This document shows positions 25,729 to 28,049 of a stretch of DNA of 42,889 nucleotides, one piece after another (within the stretch, counting starts at the first letter, position 1; each line of letters begins with the position of its first letter). Made by a program: the position numbers and the translations under genes. The notes under the pieces were generated by a model, which was not told the origin of the DNA, did no database searches, and saw only the letters and a program-made list of their open reading frames with translations. This DNA comes from a virus (lineage: Duplodnaviria > Heunggongvirae > Uroviricota > Caudoviricetes): the IMG/VR virus record IMGVR_UViG_2703718853_000004; one strand, given 5' to 3'.

Positions 25729-26072
25729 TGCTGCGGCTCCTTCAGTTCTTCGGCCTTAGCTTTCAATGCTGGCTGGCGTACGTATTGCGAAAGCACCGCC
25801 AGCACCACCAGCGCAGGGCTAATCAACGCAACAATGTTTGGAGGCAGAATGTTTTTGATATCCGGCGGCAGCATCGCCCAGGCGTGCAGCGCAGCATCCG
25901 GGAACGACTGCGCCCACATGCCAACCAGCGCACCGATAGCCCCCAGCTTTACAGACCACGTTTTCAGCAGCAGGCTGGCATGGGCAACGAACTCCAGCCG
26001 GGTATATTTGCGCAGCAGTAACAGAACGAGCACAGCCACCACCACGAGCAAAGCGAAGATGATCATCTTCAT
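25725..26072 (-). CDS. Lysis-associated membrane protein
   Basis: 115 aa hydrophobic protein ATGA-coupled to the endolysin gene. Confidence 0.4.
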   Translation of the reverse strand: MKMIIFALLVVVAVLVLLLLRKYTRLEFVAHASLLLKTWSVKLGAIGALVGMWAQSFPDAALHAWAMLPPDIKNILPPNIVALISPALVVLAVLSQYVRQPALKAKAEELKEPQQ

Positions 26073-26608
26073 AGCACGCGCTCCTTAACCCAGCCGTAGA
26101 GGAAATCCTCGTTGGCTTCGCGGCCCTCCGCCAGTTCGAGGTATCTGGCGCCCTGGCTGCAGTTCAGCGCACGTAACAGAACCTGTTCCCCCTCTTTCCC
26201 GCGGGCTGAAAGATATCCCTTAAGCGCAGTGATGGTTCGGGGGCCAATGGCGCCATCCGGGATCAGATCGGGATACAACTTCCCACGCATGTTAAGGGCA
26301 GTGAGCCAGCGCTGGAAAAACTTAATTGCAACCGATGGCCCCATGTTCACGCCAGTGTCGCAAAGCTCATCTGCCAGTAACGTAGATAAACTTGCCACCT
26401 GATCGAATCGGGGGCCGGTCCAGTAATCGCTGAGCAGAATTTGCTTTGCTGTTTCCCTGGGCAGGCTTCTCATATCACCGGTGTAACCATGTGCTCGAGC
26501 TGTGGTCTGCGTGATGCCCCAGCGGGTCGGCCCGCCTTTATCCGACGGATGATCGACATAACCGCCCTCTTTGCCGAGGATCCCCTCGATAGTCTGGTCT
26601 GCTTTCAT
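26069..26608 (-). CDS. Endolysin (GH108-type lysozyme with peptidoglycan-binding domain)
   Basis: EGGYVDHPSDKGGPTRWGIT matches the GH108 N-terminal signature; sits between holin and spanin genes. Confidence 0.75.
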   Translation of the reverse strand: MKADQTIEGILGKEGGYVDHPSDKGGPTRWGITQTTARAHGYTGDMRSLPRETAKQILLSDYWTGPRFDQVASLSTLLADELCDTGVNMGPSVAIKFFQRWLTALNMRGKLYPDLIPDGAIGPRTITALKGYLSARGKEGEQVLLRALNCSQGARYLELAEGREANEDFLYGWVKERVL

Positions 26609-26916
26609 TGTGCTTTCACTCCGGTGATTCGTTCCCAGAAATACGTGAGCGCTACGGAACCCATAGCACCACTGATACCGGCAGTGGCCAGTATCATGTA
26701 AATACTCAGGCCACCTTCAATGCTGATGAGCCCACCAATAACCCCGGTAAAAGCCGAAACCACAATCTGCGCAAAAGCATTTATCCAGCTCCATTTTGCT
26801 TTGCCCTGCTTTACATCCATCAGGAATCGGACAAGGCCGCCCCAACCAGCAATGATCAGCAGAACCAGCCAGGACATCCCGGCAATGCTCTCTTTGTCTT
26901 GCATACGCTTAGCCAT
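26605..26916 (-). CDS. Holin
   Basis: 103 aa with about three TM segments, GGAGG SD, first gene after the late terminators and overlapping the endolysin start. Confidence 0.6.
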   Translation of the reverse strand: MAKRMQDKESIAGMSWLVLLIIAGWGGLVRFLMDVKQGKAKWSWINAFAQIVVSAFTGVIGGLISIEGGLSIYMILATAGISGAMGSVALTYFWERITGVKAQ

Positions 26917-27020
26917 AGTTACCGCCTCCGATGAAAGATCGGGAAGCTGTGTGTGAGAAGGTCAGGGCCGTCGGGCTGATTTACCAACAAAGCGTCGAGG
27001 GTGATTCCCGCGACCCTGAA

Positions 27021-27047
27021 AATAAAAAAGCCTGCGGTTAGGCAGGC
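27021..27047 (-). terminator. Intrinsic terminator between the tRNA-like gene and holin
   Basis: Minus-strand GCCTGC-ctaacc-GCAGGC followed by TTTTTTATT. Confidence 0.55.
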
Positions 27048-27181
27048 AATAAGCATGAGGGTAATAGCAATGTCGGTGATGACCGAAAATACCCAGGCTT
27101 GGTCTGGCGGCCTGTGACGCTGTTGCAGCAGCGCCCCTGATGGATTGGATTATGAGCCCGTCATCAGGTCAGGCCATTATT

Positions 27182-27256
27182 TGGCGGGACAGGAAGGATT
27201 CGAACCTTCTACCATTCGGTTAACAGCCGAACGCACAACCGCTGTGCTTCTGACCC
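27182..27256 (-). tRNA. tRNA-like gene, anticodon GTT (Asn), atypical
   Basis: Hand-folded 75-nt cloverleaf: acceptor GGGTCAG/CTGTCCC (one T-T mismatch), anticodon arm TTCGG-CTGTTAA-CCGAA, T-arm GAAGG-TTCGAAT-CCTTC, 3' GCCA; position 8 is A rather than U. Confidence 0.5.
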
Positions 27257-27260
27257 TGAA

Positions 27261-27292
27261 ATGAAAAAGCCCAAGGCGTTAACCTCGGGCTT
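27261..27292 (-). terminator. Terminator-like hairpin just downstream of the Q gene (tR'-like)
   Basis: Minus-strand imperfect stem (GCCCGAGG/CCTTGGGC) followed by TTTTTCAT. Confidence 0.4.
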
Positions 27293-27359
27293 GAATTCTT
27301 TATGTGTCGACAATCGAAGCTATGGCGACGATATCAGATTTACATGAAATATATGCCTT

Positions 27360-28049
27360 TCAGTTCGGTTTTGCAAGACTTACATCTAAATTTGACGCCT
27401 TTTGTTGTGAACGTGATCGCGTTACCGCCATGAGAGCGTCGCTATCAAGCTTCACAAAACTGCTGCGCAGCGCCAGCCAATGAGGGAGGTAGGTTTCTGT
27501 CCATGTGGACTTTGCTACACCAACCAGCTCCGCCAGCGACTGGTATTCATACGTCTCCCGTCCTGCCAGCTCGGCTTTGACGTCCTGTGCGGCCAGCCAG
27601 ATAAGTTGACGGAGGCGATCGACTGTTTTCTTTGCAATGCGCACACCGGCCAGCTTGTCGCTGAATTGCTCCCATGCCCAGCGGGTTATCGTCTCCTGGT
27701 GCTCCCAGCGGATATTGTCGCTGTAGTTCCACAGCAACCAGGATTTCTGGTGGTCTTCCAGCGACAGGAGGGCGCGACGCCAGCTGGCTGTCGAGTATTC
27801 AACGGGCAGAACGAGAGCGATTGAGGAACCCTTAGCGCGGGACTGGCTGCCGCTCATCGGCGGTCCATCCGGGTTAACCATTTTTTGCTTCACCTCGCTA
27901 TATACCTTCTTCCGGCCACGGCTGCGCGCCGTAGCGGTAAATTGCGCGTTCTCTGCAAGAGCTACCAGTTGCCCTTTCGTCGCACCACTCAGATCGGCGG
28001 TGGCCACTATCAGCTGCTGGCGAACAAATTCCAAGTATTGAGCTGTCAT
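27360..28049 (-). CDS. Late-gene antitermination protein Q-like
   Basis: 229 aa; occupies the conserved position between the Nin region and the late terminator/tRNA/lysis region; family assignment is positional. Confidence 0.5.
   Translation of the reverse strand: MTAQYLEFVRQQLIVATADLSGATKGQLVALAENAQFTATARSRGRKKVYSEVKQKMVNPDGPPMSGSQSRAKGSSIALVLPVEYSTASWRRALLSLEDHQKSWLLWNYSDNIRWEHQETITRWAWEQFSDKLAGVRIAKKTVDRLRQLIWLAAQDVKAELAGRETYEYQSLAELVGVAKSTWTETYLPHWLALRSSFVKLDSDALMAVTRSRSQQKASNLDVSLAKPN

What the first reader, a model, noticed from the sequence alone, without database searches (positions are those of the whole stretch)
27021..27292. tRNA-Asn-like gene embedded between two terminators in the Q-to-lysis region
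A 75-nt sequence folds by hand into a cloverleaf with anticodon GTT but has A8 and a T-T acceptor mismatch, so it may be a functional phage tRNA or a decayed one. It is bracketed by two hairpin/T-tract terminators that share the downstream motif ATTTCAGGGTC, suggesting duplication of the late terminator region around the tRNA.
Basis: seen in the sequence. Interest (0 to 1): 0.45.

Follow-up and report, generated by a model that had tools for sequence, protein, structure and literature searches.

The report
Phage tRNA-Asn in late-operon leader
This is an intact, already-annotated phage tRNA-Asn gene in the leader of a lambdoid prophage's late operon, between the terminator of a short Q-controlled leader RNA and a second terminator ahead of the lysis genes; the layout is well known, and the only unannotated item is a tRNA-like RNA just downstream.

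Summary
ARAGORN and Rfam both call a 75-nt tRNA-Asn(GUU) at 27256..27182, with A8, a U4.U69 mismatch, G73 and an encoded CCA. Two intrinsic terminators flank it. The shared tail is TTTCAGGGTC (10 nt exact; 17 of 19 ungapped).

The tRNA is not decayed. It is nearly invariant in about 40 temperate Klebsiella, Enterobacter and E. coli phage loci. RefSeq annotates it as tRNA-Asn in 79 of 5426 E. coli genomes. A second allele keeps U4.U69 while changing 8 stem pairs compensatorily. A8 is shared with tRNA-Asn genes of unrelated lytic phages.

The upstream terminator ends an IsrJ-family RNA (Rfam RF01393) that starts just after a Q82-family antiterminator gene, in the position of lambda 6S RNA and tR'. 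The slot between Q and the holin leader is an exchangeable cassette: none, Asn, Asn-Arg, Met-Arg, Thr, Asn-Phe-Thr-Arg, Gly, or the sRNA STnc100.

Only the terminator tails are repeated; the hairpins are unrelated. Related phages have single-tail alleles without the cassette.

The "spacer" after the tRNA holds a conserved, unannotated, D-arm-less tRNA-like RNA (27175..27105). The finding is ordinary and already known. A possible role against tRNA-cleaving defence nucleases is inference only.

The parts
27360..28049 (-). Q antiterminator gene (229 aa, Q82 / Gifsy-1 AntQ family)
   Evidence: Pfam PF06323, E=1e-82. 57% identical to Gifsy-1 AntQ. Annotated as antitermination protein Q in RefSeq.
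27348..27376 (-). Sigma-70 promoter-like site (TTGCAA-17-TATATT) overlapping the 3' end of Q; candidate late promoter, analogous to pR'
   Evidence: It is the only promoter-like site found in 26850-27500. The same hexamers stand in front of Gifsy-1 isrJ. The region 27381-27331 is conserved next to Q genes of other phages.
27266..27344 (-). IsrJ-family short RNA; I read it as the terminated leader of the late operon (inference)
   Evidence: Rfam RF01393, 57.1 bits against a gathering score of 37, full length. The fold has z=-3.9. In Salmonella, IsrJ is a 74-nt RNA with its own promoter and a rho-independent terminator (PMC2330248, PMC4825925).
27257..27292 (-). Terminator 1 (hairpin 27292..27267 plus U tract), the 3' end of the IsrJ-like RNA; analogous to tR'
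   Evidence: Terminator scan. -18.2 kcal/mol, z=-5.9. The same hairpin is annotated 'terminator' in phage phi80 and Klebsiella phage Mulock.
27252..27268 (-). Repeated tail, copy 1 (TTTTTCATTTCAGGGTC); the last 5 nt are tRNA positions 1-5
27182..27256 (-). tRNA-Asn (anticodon GUU), phage 'type A' allele: A8, U4.U69, G73, encoded CCA
27105..27175 (-). Unannotated 71-nt tRNA-like element. It has a 6-bp acceptor-like stem followed by GCCA. A long arm is tipped by the 7-nt loop CUCAUAA. A third arm has a 7-bp stem and a 6-nt loop. There is no D arm.
   Evidence: Fold z=-3.5. 97.1% of cells are paired across 27 distinct sequences, three pairs show compensatory change, and slid controls pair at 30-52%. 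Mosaic breakpoints fall right after CCA. Rfam and ARAGORN do not call it.
27048..27104 (-). Conserved trailer segment with a small hairpin (27086..27073) and an A/U-rich stretch before terminator 2
   Evidence: The only Rfam matches are chance-level similarities to sRNA 3' ends.
27020..27047 (-). Terminator 2 (hairpin 27047..27030 plus U6AUUUU), closing the tRNA cassette ahead of the lysis genes
   Evidence: The hairpin is replaced by at least five unrelated G+C-rich hairpins in related loci while the tail stays constant.
27012..27029 (-). Repeated tail, copy 2 (TTTTTTATTTTCAGGGTC)
26917..27011 (-). Conserved untranslated leader of the lysis cassette (GCGGGAATCACCCTCGACGC...)
   Evidence: It lies upstream of different holin types in about 100 IMG/VR loci. 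A 1-nt deletion in L010 argues against coding.
26605..26916 (-). Holin (LydA type), first late gene
   Evidence: Pfam PF16083.
26069..26608 (-). Endolysin (GH108 plus peptidoglycan-binding domain)
   Evidence: Pfam PF05838 and PF09374.

Best explanation
The region is the leader of the late operon of a lambdoid (Q82-family) prophage of E. coli, read on the minus strand.

A promoter overlapping the end of gene Q starts a short RNA of the IsrJ family. Without Q, that RNA ends at terminator 1, much as lambda 6S RNA ends at tR'. Ten nucleotides further on lies an intact phage-lineage tRNA-Asn(GUU) gene. Next comes a 71-nt tRNA-like RNA, then terminator 2, then the conserved leader and the holin and endolysin genes.

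There is no room for a separate promoter in front of the tRNA. It must therefore be transcribed by polymerases that pass terminator 1. That means heavily when Q makes RNA polymerase terminator-resistant during lytic growth, and weakly by leakage in the lysogen. In the lysogen, terminator 2 would stop the leaked transcripts before the lysis genes.

The tRNA would be cut out of this transcript by the host's tRNA-processing enzymes and charged by AsnRS. Its anticodon loop, G73 and CCA match the host tRNA-Asn.

Shown: the gene calls, the anatomy, the conservation and the cassette variability. Inferred: Q-dependence, processing, charging and the benefit to the phage. That benefit could be extra Asn decoding for Asn-rich late proteins, replacement of host tRNA-Asn destroyed by anticodon nucleases, or both.
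For: tRNA calls: ARAGORN, and Rfam at 61.4 bits, within the 53.7-66.2 range of sibling phage tRNAs.

Conservation: the same sequence, give or take one variable-loop base, occurs in 36 of 44 tRNA-Asn genes found in related loci. It is also in GenBank phages at 96-99% identity. It occurs in 79 of 5426 E. coli genomes, and all 12 listed rows are annotated tRNA-Asn.

Covariation: the type B allele keeps G1-G3, U4.U69, G73 and the loop CUGUUAA. It changes pairs 6:67, 7:66, three anticodon-stem pairs and three T-stem pairs compensatorily. A8-A9 with the D stem GCAC/GUGC recurs in tRNA-Asn genes of lytic Aeromonas, Erwinia and Shigella phages.

Context: Q is PF06323, followed by holin and endolysin. 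The isrJ match covers promoter-proximal RNA plus terminator 1. The same promoter hexamers and 5' RNA occur at Gifsy-1 isrJ, which is followed by tRNA-Arg. IsrJ is highly transcribed in lysogens under all conditions tested (PMC7067206).

Cassette: the same slot holds alternative tRNA sets in 103 loci.

Demand: late ORFs use 47.3 Asn codons per 1000, against 35.4 in a host sample and 36.5 in early ORFs.
Against: There are no expression, processing or aminoacylation data for this tRNA. A8 replaces the nearly universal U8, and the acceptor stem carries a U.U mismatch; either could reduce function.

E. coli already has four tRNA-Asn genes, and one tRNA reads both Asn codons. Codon supply is therefore a weak rationale, and the Asn excess is only 1.3-fold.

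The near-identity of type A copies could reflect recent spread rather than purifying selection.

Q-dependence of terminator 1 and the sigma-dependent pause or Q-binding site were not tested. The distance from the -10 hexamer to the Rfam 5' end is only 3 nt, so the promoter register is uncertain.
Confidence: 0.78

Rival explanations
1. Anti-defence tRNA. The main reason the phage keeps tRNA-Asn is to replace host tRNAs destroyed by tRNA-cleaving defence nucleases. In sibling cassettes the same would apply to tRNA-Thr(UGU). Candidate nucleases are PARIS AriB and P2 Old, which are carried by P4 satellites and P2 prophages. The phage copy would escape because it lacks the recognition sequence. This concerns the purpose of the tRNA and is compatible with the anatomy described above.
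For: [quoted passage not shown] U39->A abolishes cleavage of tRNA-Lys. T5 tRNA-Lys, -Thr and -Asn together neutralise PARIS (PMC12409363). P2 Old cleaves tRNA-Thr(UGU) fastest and also tRNA-Asn(GUU) (PMC12445682).

The window tRNA reads U36AAC39C40G41. All eight phage tRNA-Asn compared have C or G at position 39, while the host has U39. The cassette tRNA-Thr(UGU) alleles have G39 (read by eye). Asn is not a rare-codon tRNA, unlike the Arg(UCU), CAU and Gly(UCC) cassette members.
Against: This rests entirely on analogy; no cleavage assay exists for this tRNA. A non-U at position 39 is common among tRNAs in general. The main AriB target, tRNA-Lys(UUU), is never present in these cassettes. AriB also needs contacts outside the anticodon arm. 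tRNA-Asn is only a minor target.
Confidence: 0.22
2. Decaying pseudogene. The tRNA is a non-functional remnant of a larger tRNA array (Asn-Arg or Asn-Phe-Thr-Arg), and A8 and U4.U69 are accumulated damage.
For: A8 and an acceptor mismatch are unusual. The window cassette is a reduced form of the arrays seen in relatives. Decayed members do exist nearby: a broken tRNA-Gly in HK639 and a tRNA-Thr 3' stub in L077. Its Rfam score is 11 bits below that of the host tRNA-Asn.
Against: Both 'defects' are fixed features. U4.U69 is kept in type B despite 8 compensatory pair changes. A8 is shared with tRNA-Asn genes of lytic phages. The sequence is identical where the full arrays are intact. Singleton variants that add further mismatches are rare, at 3 of 44. 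RefSeq does not flag it as a pseudogene.
Confidence: 0.06
3. Insertion with target duplication. The tRNA cassette (tRNA, tRNA-like element and terminator 2) entered a single ancestral terminator by an event that duplicated its about 18-nt tail. On this view the two tails are a footprint of mobility, not a reused recombination linker.
For: The tails are direct repeats that exactly bracket the cassette. In IMG/VR loci L048, L053, L055, L061 and L067 the L007-type terminator hairpin plus one tail is joined directly to the holin leader. In L007 the same hairpin plus tail is followed by tRNA-Asn, terminator 2, a second tail and the leader.
Against: The same pattern arises from deletion by recombination between pre-existing repeats, so the direction cannot be told. 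No mobility gene is associated. The left repeat includes the functional 5' end of the tRNA. The same tail follows many unrelated hairpins, which looks like a shared linker. No empty site was found for this Q/IsrJ lineage in 5426 E. coli genomes.
Confidence: 0.25
4. Integration-site remnant. The tRNA-Asn is an attachment-site copy left by a tRNA-targeting integrase.
For: From general knowledge, tRNA-Asn genes are common integration targets in Enterobacteria.
Against: The gene lies mid-prophage between Q and the holin, not at a prophage end. It is full length and differs greatly from the host tRNA-Asn. It sits at the same place in genomes of isolated phages such as Mulock, HK639 and Chronis.
Confidence: 0.01

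Closest known systems
tRNA genes between Q/pR'-tR' and the late genes of lambdoid phages (Stx phage 933W ileZ-argN-argO, from established knowledge; Gifsy-1 tRNA-Arg; Salmonella BTP1 'two central tRNA genes' just before the lytic operon, PMC7067206)
   Same: The position is the same: after the Q gene and its terminated leader, and before the lysis and late genes. So is the cassette-like gain and loss of tRNAs, and the expected dependence on late transcription.
   Different: The tRNA here is Asn(GUU), not a rare-codon tRNA. It abuts the leader terminator with only a 10-nt gap. It is followed by a tRNA-like element and a second terminator.
Lambda pR' - 6S RNA - tR' late control unit (established knowledge)
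   Same: A constitutive promoter sits just after Q, a short terminated leader RNA follows, and the lysis genes lie downstream. Q reads through the terminators.
   Different: Q belongs to a different family (PF06323, Q82/AntQ type). The leader is about 80 nt rather than 194 nt. The Q-binding and pause elements were not identified here. A second terminator and RNA genes are interposed.
IsrJ sRNA of Salmonella Gifsy-1 (Rfam RF01393; PMC2330248, PMC4825925)
   Same: The Rfam match is full length and above the gathering score. The promoter hexamers and the first about 40 nt are the same. The RNA ends in an intrinsic terminator, and a tRNA lies downstream.
   Different: In Gifsy-1 a c4/IsrK-orf45-anrP module separates antQ from isrJ; here isrJ directly follows Q. 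IsrJ has been described as a HilA-dependent invasion-related sRNA. The papers read here (PMC2330248, PMC4825925, PMC7067206) describe it as an sRNA and do not discuss a late-operon leader role.
Phage T5 tRNA-Asn followed by rna3, a 'putative tRNA-like RNA'; stable tRNA-like RNAs in the T4 and T5 tRNA clusters (established knowledge)
   Same: A phage tRNA-Asn is followed within a few nucleotides by a tRNA-sized RNA with an acceptor-like stem and a CCA end, of unknown function. T5 tRNA-Asn also lacks U39.
   Different: There is no sequence similarity to the T5 RNAs (T5 is absent from the hits). T5 tRNA-Asn has U8 and a perfect acceptor stem. T5 is a lytic phage with 24 tRNAs and its own promoters.

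Membership tests
Bacterial-type elongator tRNA (Rfam RF00005) | Covariance-model score above the gathering threshold, and a call by an independent tRNA finder | tested here: met
   61.4 bits against a gathering score of 29. ARAGORN calls tRNA-Asn GTT.
Bacterial-type elongator tRNA (Rfam RF00005) | Cloverleaf with a 7-bp acceptor stem, 4-bp D stem, 5-bp anticodon stem, 5-bp T stem, 7-nt anticodon loop with U33, G18G19, and a T loop UUCGAAU | tested here: met
   All stems are fully paired except 4:69 (U.U). The minimum-free-energy fold is the cloverleaf.
Bacterial-type elongator tRNA (Rfam RF00005) | U8 (partner of A14 in the tertiary fold) | tested here: not met
   Position 8 is A. The same A8-A9 occurs in tRNA-Asn genes of Aeromonas, Erwinia and Shigella lytic phages, so it is a lineage trait.
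tRNA-Asn identity (E. coli AsnRS; identity elements from established knowledge: G34, U35, U36, G73) | Anticodon GUU and discriminator G73 | tested here: met
   The loop CUGUUAA is identical to that of the host tRNA-Asn, and G73 and CCA are present.
tRNA-Asn identity (E. coli AsnRS) | Actual aminoacylation with asparagine | not testable with these tools
   This needs a charging assay or acid-gel northern.
IsrJ RNA family (Rfam RF01393) | Full-length covariance-model match above the gathering score, including the terminator hairpin | tested here: met
   57.1 bits against a gathering score of 37, model positions 1-75 of 75. The relatives L011 and L007 score 63.1 and 57.2 bits, and Gifsy-1 scores 100.3.
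Lambdoid late-operon control unit (Q, pR', qut, tR') | Q antiterminator gene immediately upstream, with lysis genes downstream | tested here: met
   PF06323 at E=1e-82; holin PF16083; endolysin PF05838.
Lambdoid late-operon control unit (Q, pR', qut, tR') | Promoter followed by an intrinsic terminator giving a short leader RNA | tested here: met
   A promoter-like site lies at 27376..27348 and a terminator at 27292..27267. These are sequence evidence only.
Lambdoid late-operon control unit (Q, pR', qut, tR') | Q-binding element and sigma70-dependent promoter-proximal pause; Q-dependent read-through | not tested
   No model of the Q82-type qut site was available. Only conservation of 27381-27331 next to related Q genes was seen.
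Intrinsic (rho-independent) terminators | G+C-rich hairpin directly followed by a U tract | tested here: met
   Both sites pass the scan. Energies are -18.2 and -11.2 kcal/mol, with z of -5.9 and -5.5. Termination efficiency is not testable here.
Phage tRNA-like stable RNAs (T5 rna1/2/3, T4 species 1/2), for the element at 27175..27105 | Encoded inside a tRNA cluster, with an acceptor-like stem ending in NCCA and a conserved fold, but not a canonical tRNA | tested here: met
   It starts 6 nt after the tRNA and has a 6-bp stem followed by GCCA. Covariation supports the fold. Rfam and ARAGORN do not call it a tRNA.
Phage tRNA-like stable RNAs (T5 rna1/2/3, T4 species 1/2) | Sequence homology to a described member, and existence as a stable RNA | tested here: not met
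   blastn finds it only in Klebsiella-type temperate phages and one Pantoea phage, not in T5. RNA stability is not testable here.

The most novel reading that the evidence does not exclude
The cassette could be an anti-defence module of temperate lambdoid phages. The divergent tRNA-Asn would be a nuclease-resistant replacement for host tRNAs cut by PARIS AriB or P2 Old. So would the tRNA-Thr(UGU) of sibling cassettes. Leakage through terminator 1 might express them even in the lysogen. The adjacent D-arm-less tRNA-like RNA, with its invariant U-CAU loop, would then be a previously undescribed phage tRNA mimic, acting as a decoy, an inhibitor or a processing signal.
Probability: 0.15. Interest if true: 0.6.

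Novelty: already known. Interest (0 to 1): 0.25.

Why it matters
The reported feature is a routine phage tRNA gene that public annotation already carries, in a position where lambdoid phages are known to keep tRNAs. Confirming that closes the finding.

Three by-products may be useful:
- The Rfam IsrJ family looks like the terminated leader of a Q82-type late operon. That could reframe how the Salmonella 'sRNA' IsrJ is interpreted.
- The space between Q and the holin is a modular slot of tRNA and sRNA cassettes joined at a conserved terminator tail. This is a tidy example of mosaic exchange.
- The cassette ends in a conserved, unannotated tRNA-like RNA.

If the tRNA-Asn proved resistant to AriB or Old, it would extend the 'viral tRNAs neutralise tRNA-cleaving immunity' idea from large lytic phages to temperate lambdoid phages.

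Tried and rejected
1. Chimera idea. I asked whether the tRNA fuses a tRNA-Asn 5' part to a tRNA-Arg 3' part after an array deletion, which would explain U4.U69. BLAST had aligned the tRNA's last 26 nt to the 3' end of tRNA-Arg. Rejected: the identical tRNA-Asn sequence occurs where tRNA-Arg still follows it.

2. Terminator-2 tail as a remnant. I asked whether the GGGTCG after terminator 2 is the stub of a type B tRNA-Asn 5' end. Only 6 nt are shared, and type B is not preceded by TTTCA. Not supported.

3. Genome scan. An exact scan of genome contigs for the central 33 nt of the tRNA found nothing. The viral-contig scan gave only 3 loci. The useful set came from scanning for the terminator-2 tail.

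4. Empty-site test. A synthetic junction (IsrJ, terminator 1 and tail joined directly to the holin leader) was searched against 5426 E. coli genomes. All 25 listed full-coverage matches were in two pieces with tRNA-Asn between them, and the count of full-coverage matches (41) equals that of the occupied-site query. No precise empty site was found for this lineage.

5. Is the tRNA-like element a true tRNA? No tRNA hit appeared in Rfam even at E<=10. ARAGORN found nothing in standard or mitochondrial modes.

6. The 45-aa ORF at 27056..26919, which spans terminator 2 and the leader. It is judged spurious. Its start and N-terminus lie in the hairpin and trailer, which are replaced by unrelated sequence in relatives, and L010 has a 1-nt deletion in the leader.

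7. Literature. A search for the Stx-phage tRNA names found no paper in the held library. A 2025 review of phage sRNAs does not mention IsrJ.
Full report
**1. What is in the sequence**

All features lie on the minus strand.
- ARAGORN finds exactly one tRNA in the 42.9-kb window: tRNA-Asn (GTT) at 27182..27256(-).
- Rfam's tRNA model scores it 61.4 bits against a gathering score of 29, and flags one non-standard acceptor pair.
- The minimum-free-energy fold of the 75 nt is the cloverleaf.
- Parsed by arm, the acceptor is GGGUCAG/CUGUCCC with U4.U69, positions 8-9 are A-A, and the D stem is GCAC/GUGC. The anticodon loop is CUGUUAA, the T loop is UUCGAAU, the discriminator is G73 and CCA is encoded.
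- The terminator scan finds a strong hairpin plus T tract at 27292..27267 and another at 27047..27030. Their energies are -18.2 and -11.2 kcal/mol, and no shuffle folds as well.
- The exact shared string after both T tracts is TTTCAGGGTC: 2 matches against 0.19 expected. Right-aligned, the tails agree at 17 of 19 positions.

**2. Context**

- The ORF at 28049..27360(-) is a Q antiterminator (PF06323, E=1e-82).
- The ORF at 26916..26605(-) is a LydA-type holin, and the next ORF is a GH108 endolysin.
- The window is an E. coli prophage. The 551-nt region is 100% identical in ST540, ST361 and other chromosomes. RefSeq annotates 'antitermination protein Q | tRNA-Asn | holin' there, and the tRNA carries no pseudogene flag.
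- The tRNA sequence occurs in 79 of 5426 complete E. coli genomes, once per genome. All 12 listed rows are annotated tRNA-Asn.

**3. The upstream terminator belongs to an IsrJ-family RNA**

Rfam places a full-length isrJ match (RF01393, 57.1 bits against a gathering score of 37) at 27344..27266(-). Its 3' hairpin is terminator 1. The only sigma-70-like promoter match in the region (TTGCAA-17-TATATT, 27376..27348) sits just upstream and overlaps the stop codon of Q.

In Salmonella Gifsy-1 the same hexamers and the same first about 40 nt precede isrJ, and a tRNA-Arg follows it. There, a c4/IsrK-orf45-anrP module separates antQ from isrJ (PMC4825925). The window's Q is 57% identical to Gifsy-1 AntQ.

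IsrJ is a 74-nt RNA with its own promoter and a rho-independent terminator (PMC2330248, PMC4825925). It is highly transcribed in lysogens under all conditions examined (PMC7067206).

I therefore read the IsrJ-like RNA as the terminated leader of the late operon, and terminator 1 as its terminator. These are the functional counterparts of lambda 6S RNA and tR' (established knowledge). This reading is an inference from synteny. The Q-binding and pause elements were not tested.

**4. Is the tRNA functional or decayed?**

Scanning IMG/VR for the terminator-2 tail gave about 100 loci.
- Among 44 tRNA-Asn genes found there, 29 are the common 'type A' allele. Four are the window's variant, which differs by one variable-loop base. 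Seven are a divergent 'type B'. Only 3 singletons carry an extra acceptor-stem change.
- Type B (for example Klebsiella phage Mulock) keeps G1-G3, U4.U69, G73 and the anticodon loop. It changes pairs 6:67 and 7:66, three anticodon-stem pairs and three T-stem pairs compensatorily. The U.U mismatch is therefore a maintained feature.
- A8-A9 with the D stem GCAC/GUGC recurs in tRNA-Asn genes of lytic Aeromonas (Demerecviridae), Erwinia and Shigella (Ounavirinae) phages. A8 is thus a trait of a phage tRNA-Asn lineage.
- The Rfam score lies within the range of the sibling phage tRNAs (53.7-66.2 bits). The host tRNA-Asn scores 72.6 bits.
- The elements known to specify asparagine identity (GUU and G73; established knowledge) are present.

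I conclude the gene is intact. Expression and charging remain untested.

**5. The slot is an exchangeable cassette**

In 103 oriented loci, the space upstream of the conserved tail and holin leader holds one of these:
- no tRNA (23 with full upstream sequence);
- Asn-Arg(UCU) (21);
- Asn alone (11);
- Met-type CAU with Arg (9);
- Thr(UGU) (8);
- Asn-Phe-Thr-Arg (4);
- Gly(UCC) (4);
- Thr-Arg (3), and other combinations.

Module mapping shows the order: Q 3' end with promoter and IsrJ 5' part, then the terminator-1 hairpin. After that come, optionally, a 90-nt spacer element, STnc100 sRNA (RF02076), the tRNAs and the trailer. Terminator 2, the tail and the leader close the unit.

The last tRNA, whatever its identity, usually starts about 236 nt before the tail. 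The trailer and terminator 2 therefore close the cassette.

**6. The repeated tail**

The two hairpins are unrelated in sequence. Across loci, each position is occupied by several unrelated G+C-rich hairpins, while the tail stays constant (T tract, then ATTT(T)CAGGGTC).
- In the upstream copy, GGGTC is the 5' end of the tRNA.
- In IMG/VR loci L048, L053, L055, L061 and L067, one terminator hairpin (GGGCTGCGC...GCGTGGCC) plus a single tail is joined directly to the holin leader.
- In L007 the homologous hairpin plus tail is followed by tRNA-Asn, the trailer, terminator 2, a second tail and the leader.

The tails are thus direct repeats bracketing the cassette, and single-tail 'empty' alleles exist. 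It does not tell insertion apart from deletion by recombination between the repeats. A synthetic empty-site query found no such allele for this exact lineage in E. coli genomes.

**7. The 'spacer' is structured**

Six nucleotides after the CCA of the tRNA, positions 27175..27105(-) fold into a three-way junction (z about -3.4).
- A 6-bp stem, GGCCUG/CAGGCC, is followed by GCCA.
- A long arm is tipped by the 7-nt loop CUCAUAA.
- A third arm has a 7-bp stem and a 6-nt loop.

Across 27 distinct sequences, 97.1% of cells are paired, three pairs show compensatory change, and slid controls give 30-52%. UCAU in the loop is invariant. Mosaic breakpoints fall exactly after CCA.

Rfam and ARAGORN do not recognise the element, and no phage record annotates it. 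Phage T5 likewise has a 'putative tRNA-like RNA' (rna3) right after its tRNA-Asn, but without sequence similarity. I file this as a side observation: a new member of the poorly understood phage tRNA-like stable RNAs.

**8. How it most likely works**

Only 10 nt separate terminator 1 from the tRNA, so there is no space for a promoter. The tRNA must be made by read-through of terminator 1.
- During lytic growth, Q-modified polymerase would read through strongly.
- In the lysogen, leakage would give weak expression, and terminator 2 would then shield the lysis genes.
- The tRNA and the tRNA-like element would be excised by host processing enzymes.

All of this is inferred.

**9. Why asparagine?**

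Late ORFs use 47.3 Asn codons per 1000, against 35.4 in a 50-kb host sample and 36.5 in early ORFs. That is a modest excess, and the host already has four tRNA-Asn genes.

An alternative rests on published work. [quoted passage not shown] U39->A abolishes cleavage, and T5's Lys, Thr and Asn tRNAs together neutralise PARIS (PMC12409363). [quoted passage not shown]

The window tRNA has C39 (UAACCG). Every phage tRNA-Asn compared has a non-U at position 39, while the host has U39. This is suggestive only. A non-U at 39 is common among tRNAs, tRNA-Lys never occurs in the cassettes, and nothing was assayed.

**10. Verdict**

The finding is real but ordinary. It is an intact tRNA-Asn, already annotated, in the known tRNA slot of a lambdoid late-operon leader. 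The interest lies in three side products: IsrJ read as a late leader, the modular cassette with its repeated junction, and the unannotated tRNA-like RNA. A possible anti-nuclease role remains untested.

Noticed in passing
window 27105-27175 (-): There is an unannotated 71-nt D-arm-less tRNA-like element 6 nt after tRNA-Asn. It has an acceptor-like stem followed by GCCA, an invariant U-CAU in a 7-nt loop, and covariation support. It follows the last tRNA of the cassette in about 50 related loci, and mosaic breakpoints fall exactly after its CCA.
   Followed up: partly
window 27266-27344 (-): An Rfam isrJ (RF01393) match lies directly after the Q gene. This suggests the IsrJ 'sRNA' family is the terminated leader of a Q82-type late operon. 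In Gifsy-1 it is displaced from antQ by a c4/IsrK-orf45-anrP insertion.
   Followed up: partly
L011 1465-1660, L007 1467-1659, L003 1934-2139: In related phages the same Q-to-holin slot carries the sRNA STnc100 (RF02076), with its own terminators, instead of or alongside tRNAs. A hypothetical CDS annotated on the opposite strand in MK448233 overlaps it and is probably spurious.
   Followed up: no
L002 1537-1626 and about 40 other loci: A conserved element of about 90 nt (TGCCTGCGATCCGGTCAGGGCTCTTGGG...CCAGATTGA) directly precedes the first tRNA (Met-type, Thr, Gly or type B Asn) in many cassettes. It is absent from the window. It has no Rfam match and its role is unknown.
   Followed up: no
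L003 (phage HK639) 1517-1591 and about 1597-1670: The HK639 GenBank record does not annotate its tRNA-Asn, which differs from the window's by one base. Right after it lies a tRNA-Gly(UCC)-like sequence whose 3' acceptor strand no longer pairs, so it looks like a decayed tRNA.
   Followed up: partly
L113 151-226 (Erwinia phage Hena2 and relatives): The tRNA-Asn of these Ounavirinae phages appears to have three consecutive U.U mismatches in the acceptor stem (4:69, 5:68, 6:67), yet it is conserved across many phages.
   Followed up: no
window, all ORFs (late genes below 26916): The prophage uses AGA, AGG and AUA four to five times more often than a host sample, and ACA and GGA about 1.6 times more often. 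Yet this cassette lacks the tRNA-Arg(UCU), CAU-anticodon, Thr(UGU) and Gly(UCC) genes that sibling cassettes carry.
   Followed up: partly
L001 3547-3954 (E. coli ST540 chromosome): In the ST540 RefSeq copy the holin is annotated as truncated and joined to a fragment of a DUF2612 gene. That prophage copy therefore has an internal deletion after the holin start, whereas the window has an intact lysis cassette.
   Followed up: no
window 26919-27056 (-): A 45-aa ATG ORF spans terminator 2 and the holin leader, and a similar ORF is annotated as a hypothetical protein in MK448230. It is probably not coding: the start region is not conserved, and one relative has a 1-nt deletion.
   Followed up: yes
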